NCBI RefSeq assembly: GCF_055900595.2
Contig: NZ_CM148325.1
DNA: 64,000 nt
Reading direction: 5' to 3' (one strand)
A program made the position numbers. Every line of letters begins with the position of its first letter. Position 1 is the first letter of the stretch. Below are positions 3,001-12,000 of this stretch, in pieces.

Positions 3001-6000
3001 TGGTGGATAACCGGAACCGCCTGGCAGAGGTGGTTACCCGGAAATTGCAGGACAGCTTTTATATCAACGTTTCCTGGGATGCGCTGAACACAGCATACAG
3101 TGAACACCCGGAGTGGTTTTCAGGGCTTGTCTCCGGGGATGAGAATTAATAAGTGGATTATGCTGCCATCAGGCAGTGTGATTGCCGGCAGGGATTTCGT
3201 TTTATTCTGTTTCTTCCCGGGGTTCGGGTTTGAATTTTCCCAGAAAGTTGTACATCGGTCGCATGCAGGGATGCGGATAGCCGTCCCGCATAAACACCAC
3301 CCGGGTTTCCTCAACACTGGTCACGGTGACAAGTGCACCATGATCGTCTTTGTATCGCTGATTGACTTTCGGTAATGGAACATCTTCTGACATAAATTTT
3401 AGTACGGTAACAGTTAACTAAATTTTCATGTGGTAGCACTGAATCAGGAGACTGCGTTTCCTGATGTGCGCTGTTAATTTTCTGTTTTTACGAAACATTT
3501 CCCCCTTCTTCCTGTGTATTTTATTGCGCTCCTCCTTTCATGTCCTTCCCATATCCTGAAACTCACTTAAATGCTGTTGAATCGTCACGCATTGCAATTT
3601 TCAATGACTGAAATCAAAAATTGCTATTTTTTAAGCTAACCGACTGTATTAAAAGCATTCAGTGGAATAATTTTCTGCACTTTTCCATTAATTATGGTTA
3701 TAAATTTTGCAATGTGCTGTTTTTACGATATGTGACAGAATAAAGAACTGTTCATTTGTGTTATATCGATCGATAAATCTGTCATATTCCTGTAGTTCAG
3801 ATCATTATTCTATAATGATCAAAAATAAGTCAGCTAAAAATTGGCAGATTTATTACTCAGCATTCTGGTACCGGTTGATGCGGGTAAATACCGGAAGGGC
3901 GGTAGCGTGCCATCGCAAAACATGGTGAGAGGTATCGTCAGGAGGCTGGTGATTGTTGGTATGGCATGAATAAAAGGTTTTTCGTTTGACTGGAAAATTA
4001 TGTTGCAGGAACGAGAGGGCTGAGGAACAAAGCTTATCCCGGCGCTGTCCGTCCTTGCTGTCACTGACACTGATGTCTGTTTTATTATCGCCTTTATCTC
4101 TTCAGGCAGCGGATGTCCGGCGTAGCGGAGATGAAGCATTTATCATTCAGCAGCAACGTCAGGAAGCCCTTGAGCAACAACTGACGCCTTCGGCCCCTGA
4201 TGTTCGCCTTTCTGCACCTGGCTCTTTTGCCCGTAAGATTAATTTTCCTGTTGAAACGCCCTGTTTTCAGATTAAACAGACAGAACTGGAGGGGGCTGAT
4301 GCGTTACCACACTGGTTGCCTTTACAAAAAATCGCCAACGGGGCGGTCGGGCATTGCATGGGGGCGAAAGGAATTAATCTGCTGATGAGTACATTGCAGA
4401 ACCGTCTGGTCGATCATGGTTATGTCACTACCCGGGTTCTGGCACCTTCGCAGGATTTAAAAAGCGGTATCCTCCGGCTGGTTATTATTCCCGGTGTTGT
4501 GCGGCATGTGCGTCTGACACCGGACAGTGATGACTATATTCAGTTGTATTCCTCATTTCCGGCACACGAAGGCTCTCTGCTGGATTTACGGGACATTGAG
4601 CAGGGGCTTGAGAATATGCAACGACTGCCGGGTGTACAGGCTGATATGGAAATTGTGCCCGGTGAGCAGCCAGGGGAAAGTGACATTCTTATTACCCGCA
4701 AACAGGACAAATACTGGCGACTGGGGTTTTCGCTTGATGATTCAGGTACCCGCAGCACAGGGCGTTATCTCGGTGGTATAACATTTTCTCTGGATAATCC
4801 TTTTTCCCTGAGTGACCTGCTGTATGTTTCTGCCACCCATAATTTTCCACATTACGGGGGTAAGGGTAGTAAAAACTACACGGCCCATTACTCTGTGCCT
4901 TTCGGCTACTGGCAGTTTTCCGTCACCGCCAGTGATTACGATTACCATCAGACGGTAGCTGGTGCGGTTGAGGATTACCAGTACAGTGGCGAGAGTCAGA
5001 ATCTGGGCATGCAGCTGAGCCGGGTACTGCATCGTAACGGGACGCAGAAAACGGTGCTGACCTACGATGTTCAGGCCCGCAGGTCGCGTAACTACATTAA
5101 TGATACGGAAATCCAGGTACAGCGCCGGCAGACGGCGGCATGGCGACTTGGACTGCAGCACCGCCATTATATTTCGCAGGCCACACTGGATGCCGGCGTC
5201 AGCTGGCAACGGGGAACCCGCTGGTCTGGTGCACAACCGGCACCGGAAGAAACGTTCGGTGAGGCAACGGCGCTCAGTAAGATCCTGCAGTTGAATGCAT
5301 CCTTTAATCTGCCCTTTACACTGGCAGGGCAGCCCTTCAGTTATTCCTTCCGGTATCAGCGTCAGCTGAGCAATACCCCGCTGACCCCACAGGAACAGTT
5401 TGCCATCGGTAACCGCTGGACGGTTCGTGGTTTTGACGGGGAACGAACGCTGAATGCCAGTAACGGATGGTATATCCGCAACGACCTGACCTGGCGTACG
5501 CCACTGCCGGAGCAGGAGTTATATCTGGGAATGGATTACGGCGAGGTGGGGGGAGCCGGCAGTGAATACCTTGTGGGACGTCATCTGGCCGGTGGTGTTG
5601 TGGGGCTGAGGGGGCAACTGTTCAGTACGGATTATGACGTTTTCATCGGTCGTCCGTTTTCAAAGCCGGCGGGTTTTATGACGAGTGATGTGACAGCCGG
5701 TTTTAATCTGTTCCGGGATTTCTGAGAAAGTTTCATGCGTAACGGGAAATATGACGTTCTGAGTCCCCTGTATTCCGGTGAGCCGGTCAATGAGGCGGAA
5801 GTCCTGGGGGCGGCCGTCTGGCTGTGGATGCACTCCCCCCTGCATCGTGATGCGCCACTGCATACCCTGCCGGACCTGCTGCTGCCGGTGATTAAGCACC
5901 GACAGTATGTGGTGGCAACAGAGCAGGGGCGACCGGTTTTCTTCATGAGCCAGGCCTGGCTCAGCCCGGAGGCAGAGGCGCGTTATCTTACGCAGCCGGC

Positions 6001-9000: not shown

Positions 9001-12000
9001 GGAGGCAAATACCAGCAGGCGATACAGGCCGCAACGGCAGCGGTACAGGGACTGGTCGGCGGTAATCTGAGTGCAGCCCTGGCAGGTGGTGCAGCGCCGT
9101 ATATTGCTGAAATTATCAAACAGACCACCCCGGATGGTGCGGGACGTGTGGCAGCTCATGCAGTAGTGAATGCAGCCCTGTCTCTGGCACAGGGTAAGAA
9201 TGCTCTTGCTGGTGCCGCAGGCGCTGCCACCGGCGAGGTGGTGGGAATGATAGCCACACAGATGTACGGTAAGCCGGTGAGTGAACTGAGCGAGACAGAG
9301 AAACAGACGGTCTCCACGCTGGCAACGGTTGCTGCCGGTCTGGCCGGTGGTCTGGTGGGAGACTCAGGTGCTTCAGCGGTAGCCGGAGCACAGTCAGGTA
9401 AGACGACGGTTGAAAACAATATGCTGAACGTGATAGCCACTGAAACAGCGGCTAATACGGCAGCAGCAATAGCTGGTGCTACAGGTAATGCCAGTAGGGA
9501 TACCGGGAATGATAATAGCTGGGATATTGGTGGTGGTTGTGAAGGCTCACGGGAACAGTGTGCTGTACGTGACCCGAGTCGCGATGGTACCCGGGGACCG
9601 GGGCATGTGCTGAATGGCGACAATACAGACGAAAACAAACAGCCGAATCTGGGCAAAGACGTAGCGAGCGCTACGGATAAGGATAAAGCTGAGCTTGGTG
9701 GTGCAGGTGCTGGAACACCGGGTGGGTGGGGACCGGATAATGAAGAAAAAGCCCGTCATCAGGAGGTTCAGCAACAACGATTTGATGAACTGAGTAAAAT
9801 ATATGATAAAAGTCACCCGGTCGGAGAGTTAACAGTGGATGGGCAGACTATCAGGCAGAGTTCGGTAAGTAACCGTTATGGTACGACGAAAGTGTTTGAA
9901 AGCCAGAATCTGACGGATAAACAGATCCACAATTACGCACAACAGCTGGCAGGAGATACACCGCTGAAAGAGGTTCGGCCGGGGATCTATACTGCAAAGC
10001 TGAATAACGGAACATCGATCACGTTGCGGAATTTATCGTCGTCCCAAGAACAAACAGGCGCCAGATGGACTATTGATATTAGAGGGAATCAGCAATTGGC
10101 TGAAATTGCACATAAATACGGACGTCAGGTTGAAATTAAATTTAGGTGAGCATTATGTTGACTGAAAATGAGTATCGTGAAACAGCTGACGCATCGGAGA
10201 TGCAAGCGTTAAGTGGTTTATGGGCTTACAGTATTCCAGATCATGTTGATAGCGCAGTATTCAGTTTTGATGAAAGGAAAAAACTCTTTTTCTGGATATT
10301 TGAGCGCCTTCTGAAAGAAGGGCGCATCAAACTCGCCAAGCACGGTAAGTTTCTGGAAGGCAGTGTTGACGAGCAGGTTGAGCGTTTCCGACAGGCATTT
10401 CCAAAAACAGAAGAAGAGATGGAAGACGGTATCTGGTTTTTTGATGAGAGCTGTCCGGGAGGAGCTGTCTGGGTGCTTGAAGATGGCTCTCTCGAATGGA
10501 CCTGATAAACCCGTTCATAGTGCAGGATGCGGTGCAGCAAGCGTATAACAACGATATGACAGCCTCAGGTTTTGGAACGGGAGGCAAATACCAGCAGGCG
10601 ATACAGGCCGCAACGGCAGCGGTACAGGGACTGGCCGGCGGTAATCTGAGTGCACCCTGGCAGGTGGTGCAGCGTCGTATATTGCTGAAATAATCAAAAA
10701 TACCCCCCCCGGACTGTGCGGGAAGTGTGGTAGCTCATGCCTTGGTGAATGCCGCACTGGCTGTGGCACAGGGAAATAACGCTCTTGCCGGTGCCGCAGG
10801 GGCTGCCACCGGCGAGGTGGTGGGAATGATAGCCACACAGATGTACGGTAAACCGGTCAGTGAACTGAGCGAGGCAGAGAAGCAGACGGTCTCGACACTG
10901 GCAACGGTTGCTGCCGGTCTGGCCGGTGGTCTGGTGGGAGACTCAGGTGCTTCAGCGGTAGCCGGAGCACAGTCTGGTAAGGCGGGGGGCGAAGGTAGTT
11001 GGTTCGTGAATTGGTTGGAATTCTGTAATATTAATAATAAAAATCGCTAAATGGTTATTCGGGGATACTCGATTGAATAAATTTATATATTTTCTGTTAG
11101 CAGGTATTTTATTTTCGGGACAGGTGGATGCAGCACGGGGAAGAAAACCCTGCTCGGGTGCTAAAGGTGGCATTTCACACTGTACGTCAGACGGACGTTT
11201 TGTCTGTAACGACGGAAGTCTGAGTCAGTCGAAACGCTTTTGTTCCGGTTATGGCGTGGCACCCGGCAAACGTCAGGTGAAATCACCTGTCACCACGAAG
11301 CCGGTTCAGAAGAAAAAATCAGTGGCTGTCCGGAAGGTGCCACAACCGTCGGTGGCTGAGAAAGATGAGTCTGTACCGGTCACTGAGCCGCGTAAACCCA
11401 CCTGTGCGCCGCTTTATATGGCCAGCAAACCCGGATTCACGCATCTGCCTATTTGTTCCGGTAATCAGTATTAATCTGACACTGAAATAGCAGAGGCATC
11501 TGTGCTCAGCCTGCAGTTAACCCTGTATTGGCGAGCATCATAAAGCCGGACATCCTTCCGGGTATAAATATTTCCGGAGGGCGTTAATCAGAAATATTCA
11601 GTTACGGAGAAGGAAAATAAAGGAAAGTCATGGCAGGAAGAAAAAAAAGATGATAATGCAGCGGGATTTGTCCTGATTTTAGTTTGCGTTATTCTCTGGG
11701 GGATTTATGTGGCGGTCAGGACGCTGATAAACCTTAATGAGCGCTTTATTGATGCAGTATCGAATCCGGCAGGTATTATTGGTTTGTTTTTTGGTTTGCT
11801 TACCGTATTTGCAATTTTATTTCGTTTTTTTATTTACCGGAGACTCAGAAAGAAAACAGCAGCATTTGAGCAGGCCGTTTCAGAGCTGGTTCAGAGAGAA
11901 CGGGATTTTAATGAAACTGTCAATGCCGCTATAGCCCGGGGAATACGACAGGAAAAGGAGCAGCTTGCCAGACGTCGTGAGGAATTTCATACCACCAGAA

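What the first reader, a model, noticed from the sequence alone, without database searches (positions are those of the whole stretch)
3986..10505. cdiB-cdiC-cdiA-cdiI locus in which cdiA has lost its entire 5-prime half
The TpsB transporter gene is followed by an HlyC-family acyltransferase gene (the accessory cdiC arrangement described for CdiA proteins that are lipidated). The acyltransferase ORF loses its last ~45 codons and runs straight into a CdiA frame that opens in the FHA repeat region (VTLTADGRIENSGSISAKTDV...), with no signal peptide or TPS domain. The retained part still carries the VENN motif (9409-9420), a C-terminal toxin domain and a downstream immunity-like gene. This implies a deletion of several kb with a junction near 6055-6125, probably leaving a non-secretable toxin remnant while immunity is retained.
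Basis: partly seen in the sequence, partly recalled or inferred. Interest (0 to 1): 0.6.

Follow-up and report, generated by a model that had tools for sequence, protein, structure and literature searches.

The report
Decayed class IV CDI toxin locus
This is an ordinary, inherited wreck of an E. coli contact-dependent growth-inhibition locus: three separate deletions (not one) removed the toxin-delivery protein's secretion signal, receptor-binding tip and translocation domain, leaving a non-exportable toxin remnant next to its immunity gene.

Summary

Alignment to intact E. coli class IV cdiBCAI loci changes the anatomy. There are three deletions, not one:
- D1: 1,075 bp at 6162-6165, 4-bp microhomology. 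It removes the last 31 cdiC codons, the spacer and CdiA residues 1-320 (signal peptide and TPS domain).
- D2: 120 bp, in frame, at 8015-8025.
- D3: 3,951 bp, in frame, at 8860-8864. It removes residues ~1262-2578, that is the LPS-binding domain with the acylated Lys1467, the YP region and FHA-2.

About 900 residues of FHA-1 from the 5' half survive, so most of the loss lies in the 3' half.

It is not an assembly artefact. The junction-encoded CdiC' protein is on 161 contigs, and the 1341-aa allele is in at least 24 assemblies, some on Mb-scale contigs. None of 5,426 complete E. coli genomes has either junction. Sister alleles share D1 and D3 and carry further deletions, and most have lost the toxin/immunity pair.

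Verdict: real, explained, ordinary pseudogene decay in a pheV island of an ST73-like strain. Low interest.

The parts
4073..5725 (+). cdiB (TpsB outer-membrane transporter), intact, 550 aa. The ORF is open upstream to a TTG at 3986.
   Evidence: 97.6% protein identity over the full length to CdiB of the intact locus L001. The same gene in L005 has Pfam POTRA_2, POTRA_3 and ShlB. The frame is open in all alleles checked except L011/L019, which have a nonsense codon at codon 30.
5735..6172 (+). cdiC' : a 3'-truncated lysyl acyltransferase (TAAT/HlyC family). It has 144 native residues, then Pro and a stop read from cdiA sequence in the wrong frame.
   Evidence: Pfam HlyC E=2e-30, matching model positions 1-119 of 127. 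Residues 1-144 are 96.5% identical to the intact 175-aa CdiC. His37 and Asp107 are present in the translation; these are the catalytic residues per PMC8510554. ApxC (4whn) aligns through residue 160 of the intact CdiC, so conserved C-terminal structure is lost.
6162..6165 (.). D1 junction: a 1,075-bp out-of-frame deletion with 4-bp microhomology (GGTT). It removes cdiC codons 145-175, the cdiC-cdiA spacer and cdiA codons 1-320.
   Evidence: blastn against L001, L002 and L003 and the junction sequences. The deleted N-terminus carries the TPS domain, TIGR01901, at residues 106-203.
6163..10149 (+). cdiA' remnant, 1,328 native codons. The mechanical ORF opens at GTG 6124, inside cdiC. It consists of an FHA-1 stretch, the end of the pre-toxin region, VENN and the CT toxin.
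   Evidence: tblastn: CdiA(L001) residues 318-1263 map to 6154-8871 and residues 2576-3006 map to 8857-10149. TIGR01731 FHA repeats, E=1e-53.
8015..8025 (.). D2 junction: a 120-bp in-frame deletion (40 codons) between 11-bp direct repeats (CGCTGGATAAC) in FHA-1. It is specific to the window's sub-lineage.
   Evidence: It is absent from sister alleles L007 and L012, which keep the 120 bp.
8860..8864 (.). D3 junction: a 3,951-bp in-frame deletion (1,317 codons, CdiA residues ~1262-2578) with 5-bp microhomology (GCCGG). It removes the class IV receptor-binding domain including Lys1467, the YP region and the FHA-2 repeats.
   Evidence: The reference has K1466-K1467-G-K1469 in STEC4 numbering, and the RBD is Val1328-Pro1589 (PMC8510554). 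Pfam Fil_haemagg_2 repeats lie in the deleted segment.
9277..9429 (+). PT-VENN pre-toxin domain. The VENN motif is at 9409-9420.
   Evidence: Pfam PF04829, E=7e-20. Translation reads GKTTVENNMLNV.
9421..10146 (+). CdiA-CT. The N-terminal part is a putative cytoplasm-entry region. The toxin domain (9742-10146) belongs to an uncharacterised family.
10155..10505 (+). cdiI immunity gene (DUF596, 116 aa). An AGGTGA Shine-Dalgarno sequence overlaps the cdiA stop codon.
   Evidence: Pfam DUF596, E=3e-17. Sequence context. The exact protein is seen on >=999 contigs across Enterobacteriaceae. PDB 2o5h matches at E=1e-5.
10507..11050 (+). Orphan pre-toxin (PT) fragment. It lacks VENN, a toxin and an immunity gene. 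It forms an 87-91% direct repeat of 8928-9414.
   Evidence: The translation ends ...[12 protein letters not shown]... instead of ...GKTTVENN. RefSeq annotates the equivalent in L001 as a frameshifted VENN pre-toxin pseudogene.

Best explanation
The region is a pseudogenised class IV (LPS-binding, CdiC-lipidated) cdiBCAI contact-dependent growth-inhibition locus. It sits in a pheV-associated genomic island of an ST73-like phylogroup B2 E. coli.

Relative to intact loci of the same type, three illegitimate or short-repeat deletions have occurred.
- D1 is 1,075 bp with GGTT microhomology at 6162-6165. It fuses cdiC codon 144 out of frame to cdiA codon 321. It deletes the CdiC C-terminus and the CdiA signal peptide and TPS domain.
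- D3 is 3,951 bp, in frame, with GCCGG microhomology at 8860-8864. It removes the end of FHA-1, the receptor-binding domain with the acylation site Lys1467, the YP region and FHA-2. FHA-1 is joined directly to the last ~180 residues before VENN.
- D2 is 120 bp between 11-bp repeats at 8015-8025. It is a later slippage event within the FHA-1 repeats.

Shown here: the gene identities, the three junctions, their absence from complete E. coli genomes, and their presence in many independent assemblies. Also shown: every D1 allele examined carries D3, and these alleles have gone on to lose more sequence.

Inferred:
- The remnant cannot be exported. It has no Sec signal and no TPS domain for CdiB.
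- It could not bind or enter a target even if exported. It has no RBD, YP or FHA-2.
- It has no good translation start. GTG 6124 has no properly spaced Shine-Dalgarno sequence.
- CdiC' has lost both its substrate and part of its fold.
- Only cdiI, which has its own AGGTGA ribosome-binding site and lies in the operon, plausibly still acts. It would give immunity against neighbours that deploy this toxin.

The locus is therefore a decaying relic, not a working weapon.
For: Deletion map and reference identity:
- The three-deletion map is the same against three intact reference loci.
- The references are continuous ORFs of 3005 and 2937 aa.
- The reference CdiA carries the class IV hallmark YYYRIRKKGK, with K1466/K1467/K1469 in STEC4 numbering (against PMC8510554).

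What was lost and what remains:
- The TPS domain (TIGR01901) lies in the deleted N-terminus.
- FHA-2 repeats (PF13332) lie in D3.
- There is no other TPS-coding sequence in the window.
- Retained parts are HlyC, PT-VENN and DUF596.

The junctions are real and inherited:
- 0 of 5,426 complete E. coli genomes carry the D1 or D3 junction, while 197 and 244 genomes match the separate halves.
- The exact junction-encoded 145-aa CdiC' is on 161 contigs, in 251 index blocks, and has GenBank E. coli accessions.
- L005 and L006 are 99.96% identical to window 1-16172 without gaps, on contigs of 3.1 and 4.0 Mb.
- The 1341-aa allele is in 28 blocks.

Continuing decay:
- Sister alleles share D1 and D3 and have extra deletions of 1,354 bp (out of frame) and 1,785 bp. 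They have also lost CT and cdiI through recombination between the main PT region and the orphan PT.
- L011 and L019 have a nonsense mutation in cdiB.

Functional inference:
- The requirement for TPS, RBD, YP and FHA-2 comes from PMC9086364 and PMC8510554.

Genomic setting:
- The core flank is 100% identical to CFT073 and Nissle 1917.
- pheV tRNA is at 49814-49889.
Against: - No expression data exist. Whether cdiA' or cdiI is transcribed or translated is inferred only. The promoter scan was no better than chance.
- The 4-kb cdiA' frame is still open, and cdiB is intact in most alleles. This could be read as selection. However, the D1 alleles are nearly identical to each other in cdiB and cdiC, so the deletion looks recent and open frames are expected by default.
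- The order of D1 and D3 is unknown, because no allele with only one of them was found.
- None of the 5,426 complete RefSeq E. coli genomes carries the allele, although it is seen on a 5.6-Mb contig elsewhere. I did not resolve which strains or lineages carry it.
Confidence: 0.9

Rival explanations
1. Assembly artefact: the FHA repeat region collapsed during short-read assembly, and the true genome holds an intact cdiA.
For: cdiA is repetitive. D2 lies between 11-bp repeats. None of 5,426 complete E. coli genomes shows the junctions.
Against: D1 and D3 join non-homologous sequence with only 4-5 bp of microhomology, which is not what repeat collapse produces. Identical junctions occur in dozens of independent assemblies. 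These include contigs of 3.1, 4.0 and 5.6 Mb and an NCTC assembly. Ten alleles with diverged flanks share D1 and D3.
Confidence: 0.01
2. One reading: one deletion of several kb with a junction near 6055-6125 removed the whole 5' half of cdiA.
For: The ORF layout suggests it. cdiC runs into an ORF that opens in FHA repeats, and the ORF is 1341 aa against ~3000 aa for full-length CdiA.
Against: The window is colinear with intact loci up to 6165. It resumes only 1,075 bp further on in the reference. About 900 residues of FHA-1 are then retained. The 3.95-kb loss is a separate event at 8860-8864.
Confidence: 0.02
3. The remnant is maintained by selection. Either cdiI, with the silent cdiA-CT, is kept as an 'orphan-like' immunity and toxin reservoir that can be re-armed by recombination with an incoming intact cdiA. 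Or the intact CdiB serves another TpsA encoded elsewhere in the genome.
For: cdiI has a good ribosome-binding site, and the exact protein is very widespread (>=999 contigs). [quoted passage not shown] In L002 this same CT/cdiI pair is an orphan behind a different main CT. cdiB and the 4-kb frame are open in the window lineage.
Against: 7 of the 10 D1 alleles examined have deleted CT and cdiI. L011 and L019 have a nonsense codon in cdiB. Other alleles carry frame-breaking deletions. Divergence within the D1 clade is too low to show purifying selection.
Confidence: 0.07

Closest known systems
cdiBCAI(STEC4) of E. coli STEC_O31, the class IV CDI system (Halvorsen et al. 2021, PMC8510554)
   Same: The gene order is the same: cdiB-cdiC-cdiA-cdiI. 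CdiC has the His37/Asp107 TAAT dyad. The intact relatives of the window's locus (L001-L003, 96-98% DNA identity) have the same CdiA numbering and the K1466-K1467-G-K1469 acylation motif. L003 even carries the same Ntox25 toxin type as STEC4.
   Different: The window's copy lacks the CdiC C-terminus, the CdiA signal and TPS domain, the RBD with Lys1467, YP and FHA-2. Its CT is a different, uncharacterised toxin paired with a DUF596 immunity protein, not Ntox25.
Orphan cdiA-CT/cdiI modules (Poole et al. 2011, PMC3150448)
   Same: It is a 5'-truncated cdiA fragment without secretion or translation-initiation signals. It keeps the pre-VENN homology, VENN, the CT and a downstream cdiI. The same CT/cdiI pair occurs as a true orphan in strain CE0026f (L002).
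   Different: Orphans sit downstream of a full-length cdiA that can capture them. Here the 'main' gene itself has been beheaded, so no intact cdiA is present in the locus. The fragment also keeps ~900 residues of FHA-1.
Degenerate class IV locus of Salmonella enterica S-1643 (cdiC frameshift plus a cdiB mutation), noted in PMC8510554
   Same: It is a naturally inactivated class IV locus in which cdiC and export are both disabled.
   Different: There the lesions are point or frameshift mutations in cdiC and cdiB. Here cdiB is intact and the lesions are deletions within cdiC and cdiA.
RTX toxin-activating acyltransferases HlyC/ApxC (PDB 4whn)
   Same: CdiC is a clear homologue. The intact protein matches ApxC at E=5e-28, and CdiC' matches Pfam HlyC.
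   Different: The substrate is a CdiA receptor-binding domain, not an RTX protoxin. The window's copy is truncated after residue 144.

Membership tests
Class IV cdiBCAI CDI system (functional) | TpsB transporter CdiB with POTRA and ShlB beta-barrel domains | tested here: met
   550-aa intact ORF, 97.6% identical to the reference CdiB. POTRA_2, POTRA_3 and ShlB are recorded for the same gene in L005.
Class IV cdiBCAI CDI system (functional) | Full-length CdiC lysyl acyltransferase with the His37/Asp107 dyad | tested here: not met
   The HlyC domain and both catalytic residues are present. However, the last 31 of 175 residues are deleted, including a region that aligns to ApxC.
Class IV cdiBCAI CDI system (functional) | CdiA N-terminal signal peptide and TPS (hemagglutination-activity) domain for CdiB-dependent export | tested here: not met
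   D1 removes residues 1-320, including TIGR01901 at 106-203. No other copy exists in the window.
Class IV cdiBCAI CDI system (functional) | Class IV receptor-binding domain (Val1328-Pro1589) with the acylated Lys1467 | tested here: not met
   D3 removes residues ~1262-2578. The motif is present in the reference and its definition comes from PMC8510554.
Class IV cdiBCAI CDI system (functional) | YP region and FHA-2 repeats, needed for secretion arrest and outer-membrane translocation | tested here: not met
   Both lie inside D3. PF13332 repeats are found in the deleted segment. Their roles are described in PMC9086364.
Class IV cdiBCAI CDI system (functional) | PT-VENN pre-toxin domain followed by a polymorphic CT and an adjacent cdiI | tested here: met
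   PF04829, E=7e-20. VENN is at 9409-9420. A DUF596 gene starts 5 nt after the cdiA stop. Toxin and immunity activity were not tested.
Orphan cdiA-CT/cdiI module | A cdiA fragment lacking secretion and initiation signals but keeping pre-VENN homology, the CT and cdiI | tested here: met
   The GTG at 6124 has no properly spaced Shine-Dalgarno sequence (sequence).
Orphan cdiA-CT/cdiI module | Located downstream of a full-length cdiA/cdiI pair in the same locus | tested here: not met
   There is no full-length cdiA in the locus or in the 64-kb window.

The most novel reading that the evidence does not exclude
The relic may not be inert. The open 4-kb cdiA' frame, the intact cdiB and the well-positioned cdiI could be kept as an immunity and toxin cassette. 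Homologous recombination with an incoming class IV cdiA, through the retained FHA-1 and PT homology, could re-arm it. Its CT domain (9742-10146), which has no Pfam family and no convincing structural neighbour, could also be a toxin with a new fold or activity paired with DUF596 immunity.
Probability: 0.07. Interest if true: 0.4.

Novelty: already known. Interest (0 to 1): 0.15.

Why it matters
It matters little for mechanism. The locus is a textbook case of a competition system decaying once its effector can no longer be exported.

Three things are modestly useful:
- It corrects the annotation. Gene callers report a 1341-aa 'hemagglutinin' ORF and a 145-aa acyltransferase that are really pseudogene products.
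- The family of sister alleles shares D1 and D3, then shows independent FHA-repeat deletions, loss of CT and cdiI by recombination with the orphan, and a cdiB nonsense mutation. This gives a natural time series of how CDI loci erode.
- The retained CT/DUF596 pair marks an uncharacterised toxin family that a CDI laboratory could test.

Tried and rejected
- NCBIfam gave no hits for cdiB, cdiC' or cdiI. Pfam and reference alignment were used instead.
- I looked at the closest complete genome for the right half of the window, HB37 (window 40000-64000). Its pheV island lacks the cdi locus, so it was uninformative.
- I suspected Shigella, because no complete E. coli genome had the junctions. I rejected this: the core flank is 100% identical to CFT073 and Nissle 1917, and GenBank labels the CdiC' protein E. 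coli.
- dN/dS was meant to test relaxed selection on cdiB and cdiC after D1. D1 alleles differ by fewer than 5 substitutions in these genes, so the test has no power.
- I searched with a 60-aa peptide across the D3 junction to find alleles with D3 but an intact N-terminus, which would give the order of events. Nothing scored, because only cluster representatives are searched. The search was wasted.
- The promoter and terminator scan was no better than shuffled sequence.
- Rfam gave no hits in 1-16000.

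
Full report
**What is in the sequence**

On the + strand the window carries, in order:
- A TpsB gene. The ORF runs 3986-5725. The ATG at 4073 matches the annotated start in relatives.
- A 145-codon ORF at 5735-6172.
- A 1341-codon ORF at 6124-10149.
- A 116-119-codon ORF at 10146/10155-10505.
- A 107-codon ORF at 10727-11050 that repeats the pre-VENN part of the long ORF.

Pfam and NCBIfam support the identities:
- HlyC/TAAT acyltransferase for 5735-6172 (E=2e-30).
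- FHA-type repeats (TIGR01731, E=1e-53) and PT-VENN (E=7e-20) for the long ORF.
- DUF596 for the small downstream gene (E=3e-17).

The observation that this is a cdiB-cdiC-cdiA-cdiI locus whose cdiA opens in FHA repeats is therefore correct and far beyond chance.

**Mapping against intact loci**

A megablast of 3500-11500 against 5,426 complete E. coli genomes found 71 genomes in which one place covers at least 80% of the query. In the hits listed, the matching region spans 11.6-15.5 kb of the record, against 8.0 kb in the window.

Two of these relatives were checked for open reading frames.
- In L001, strain GmM062, the locus holds uninterrupted ORFs: cdiB 579 aa, cdiC 175 aa and cdiA 3005 aa, followed by a DUF596 cdiI.
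- In L003, strain 401651, cdiB (579 aa), cdiC (175 aa) and cdiA (2937 aa) are likewise uninterrupted. The gene right after cdiA there is a 151-aa hypothetical protein, and a DUF596 gene lies further downstream.

RefSeq annotation nevertheless splits these genes into 'pseudo' pieces.

L001's CdiA has the sequence ...STYYYRIRKKGKDK... with K1466, K1467 and G-K1469. This is exactly the numbering and motif reported for the acylation site of class IV CdiA(STEC4). [quoted passage not shown] The references are therefore bona fide class IV cdiBCAI loci.

**Three deletions, not one**

blastn of the window against L001, L002 and L003 gives the same picture each time.
- Window 3502-6165 is colinear with cdiB and cdiC.
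- Window 6162-8025 resumes 1,075 bp further on in the reference.
- Window 8015-8864 resumes after a further 120 bp.
- Window 8860-11500 resumes after a further 3,951 bp.

The junction sequences show the following.

| Deletion | Window position | Size | Junction | Frame | Removes |
|---|---|---|---|---|---|
| D1 | 6162-6165 | 1,075 bp | GGTT, 4-bp microhomology | out of frame | cdiC codons 145-175, the spacer, cdiA codons 1-320 |
| D2 | 8015-8025 | 120 bp | CGCTGGATAAC, 11-bp repeat | in frame | 40 codons of FHA-1 |
| D3 | 8860-8864 | 3,951 bp | GCCGG, 5-bp microhomology | in frame | 1,317 codons, CdiA ~1262-2578 |

After D1, cdiC' reads two codons into cdiA sequence in the wrong frame and stops at 6172. 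The first intact cdiA codon is V321 at 6163 (VTLTADGRIEN...). The arithmetic closes: 3005-320-40-1317 = 1328 codons, which equals 6163-10146.

The deleted N-terminus contains the TPS domain (TIGR01901, residues 106-203). The D3 segment contains the RBD with Lys1467 and the FHA-2 repeats (PF13332).

About 900 residues of the 5' half (FHA-1) survive, and roughly two thirds of the lost residues come from the centre and 3' half.

No other TPS-coding sequence exists in the 64-kb window (tblastn).

**Real, not an assembly artefact**

Queries of 320-330 bp centred on D1 and D3 found no complete E. coli genome that spans either junction. By contrast, 197 and 244 genomes match the two halves separately.

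The 145-aa CdiC' protein has a C-terminus encoded by the junction itself.
- It is present exactly in 251 index blocks and on 161 contigs.
- It has GenBank E. coli accessions CAK1214942.1, SPW88517.1 and STQ48058.1.
- It occurs on contigs up to 5.6 Mb.

Loci L005 (GCA_900448525.1, 3.1-Mb contig) and L006 (4.0-Mb contig) match window 1-16172 at 99.96% identity without a single gap. Their 1341-aa product differs from the window's by two substitutions and is listed in 28 index blocks. Junctions with only 4-5 bp of microhomology are also not what repeat collapse produces.

**A decay series**

Ten loci carrying CdiC' were compared with the intact reference.
- All share D1 and D3.
- D2 is confined to the window's sub-lineage: the window, L005, L006 and L011.
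- L008 and L010 carry a further 1,354-bp out-of-frame deletion.
- L009, L013 and L014 carry a further 1,785-bp deletion.
- L007 has a 24-bp indel.
- Seven of the ten (L007-L010 and L012-L014) have lost the CT and cdiI altogether. This happened by recombination between the main pre-toxin region and the orphan copy. In the window these form a direct repeat at 8928-9414 and 10507-10993, with 87-91% identity and 1,579 bp apart.
- L011 and L019 have a nonsense mutation at cdiB codon 30.

Within the D1 clade, cdiB and cdiC are almost identical, with fewer than 5 differences. The flanks differ by dS ~0.09-0.12. This suggests a fairly recent allele that has moved between island backgrounds. It also means the open frames carry no evidence of selection.

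**How it most likely works, or fails to**

The following is established knowledge from PMC9086364 and PMC8510554.
- CdiA needs its signal peptide and TPS domain to be exported through CdiB.
- It needs the RBD and YP region to bind a target.
- It needs FHA-2 to cross the target's outer membrane.
- CdiC acylates Lys1467 in the RBD.

All of these parts are missing here. In addition, the only in-frame start upstream of the junction (GTG 6124) lacks a properly spaced Shine-Dalgarno sequence (sequence).

I infer that CdiA' is not made. If it is made, it would stay in the cytoplasm, where CdiI would neutralise its toxin. I also infer that CdiC' is functionless, because it has lost part of its fold (the alignment to ApxC runs through residue 160) and its substrate site. 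CdiB is an intact transporter with nothing to transport.

cdiI has an AGGTGA ribosome-binding site 5 nt upstream of its ATG and may still give immunity. The frequent loss of CT and cdiI in sister alleles argues against strong selection for it.

**Context**

- The right-hand core (50000-64000) is 100% identical to CFT073 and Nissle 1917, the ST73 group.
- tRNA-Phe (pheV) is at 49814-49889, next to an integrase ORF. The locus therefore lies in a pheV island.
- Downstream, the island carries a GIY-YIG nuclease, a NERD/UvrD helicase, an OLD-family nuclease and a type I R-M system.
- A pheV island with the same gene set (HecB-like protein, RTX-activating acyltransferase, ShlA/HecA/FhaA exoprotein, DUF4222) has been described in STEC (PMC6174562).

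**The toxin**

The CT after VENN has no Pfam family. Its only PDB sequence similarity is a weak match in the linker. Homologues of its last 135 residues occur at the ends of CdiA-like proteins in Escherichia, Salmonella, Photorhabdus, Xenorhabdus, Proteus, Gilliamella and Budviciaceae. They share a conserved DGTxITLRxxSxSxxxTxARWT motif.

**Verdict**

The finding is real but ordinary. It belongs to a known system and works, or rather fails, in a fully predictable way. The allele is already present in public assemblies, though I found no published description of it. Interest is low.

Noticed in passing
L001 3485-14794; L002; L003: RefSeq/PGAP annotation of the intact reference loci splits cdiB and cdiA into several 'pseudo, incomplete' fragments, one of them mislabelled 'POTRA domain'. 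The ORF listing shows single uninterrupted frames in L001 and L003: cdiB 579 aa, and cdiA 3005 and 2937 aa. L002 carries the same split annotation, but its ORFs were not listed.
   Followed up: partly
L011 and L019 (equivalent to window 4160): Sibling assemblies of the window's allele carry a C-to-T change that creates a stop at cdiB codon 30. This is a further step of decay that is absent from the window.
   Followed up: partly
window 1-750: The left end of the window is the end of an IS3-family element that splits asrB. The 94-aa asrB tail is at 466-750 and asrA is at 754-1809. This was inferred from the gene table of the near-identical locus L005.
   Followed up: partly
window 11709-30774: A defence-gene cluster lies downstream of the cdi relic. 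It comprises a GIY-YIG nuclease (11709-12875), a NERD+UvrD helicase (13069-14856, PADLOC C3a187, E=2.5e-139), an OLD-family nuclease (16785-18491, E=1.5e-78) and a type I R-M system (hsdR/M/S, 24877-30774).
   Followed up: partly
window 15270-16643: An isolated ImpA_N/VasL-domain ORF (a T6SS TssA/VasL-like protein) has no neighbouring T6SS genes. It is probably a T6SS remnant. It is split or shortened in some sister loci (L006, L010).
   Followed up: no
window 48447-49889: tRNA-Phe (GAA) is at 49814-49889 on the minus strand, next to an integrase-sized ORF (48447-49667). This marks the boundary of a pheV island of at least 50 kb. The core beyond it is 100% identical to CFT073 and Nissle 1917, whose pheV islands differ.
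   Followed up: partly
window 9742-10146: The CdiA-CT toxin domain belongs to an unannotated family. It has no Pfam family and no PDB sequence match. Its conserved motif is DGTxITLRxxSxSxxxTxARWT. It has a confident AF2 model with no convincing structural neighbour. It is paired with DUF596 immunity.
   Followed up: partly
window 8928-9414 and 10507-10993: An 87-91% direct repeat links the main pre-toxin region and the orphan fragment, 1,579 bp apart. Recombination across it explains the loss of CT and cdiI in sister alleles L007-L010 and L012-L014.
   Followed up: yes
window 11073-11474: A YdcA-family small secreted protein gene lies immediately after the orphan fragment. Its NCBIfam PRK10040 hits fall below the curated cut-off. 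It is conserved at this position in intact and decayed loci alike.
   Followed up: no
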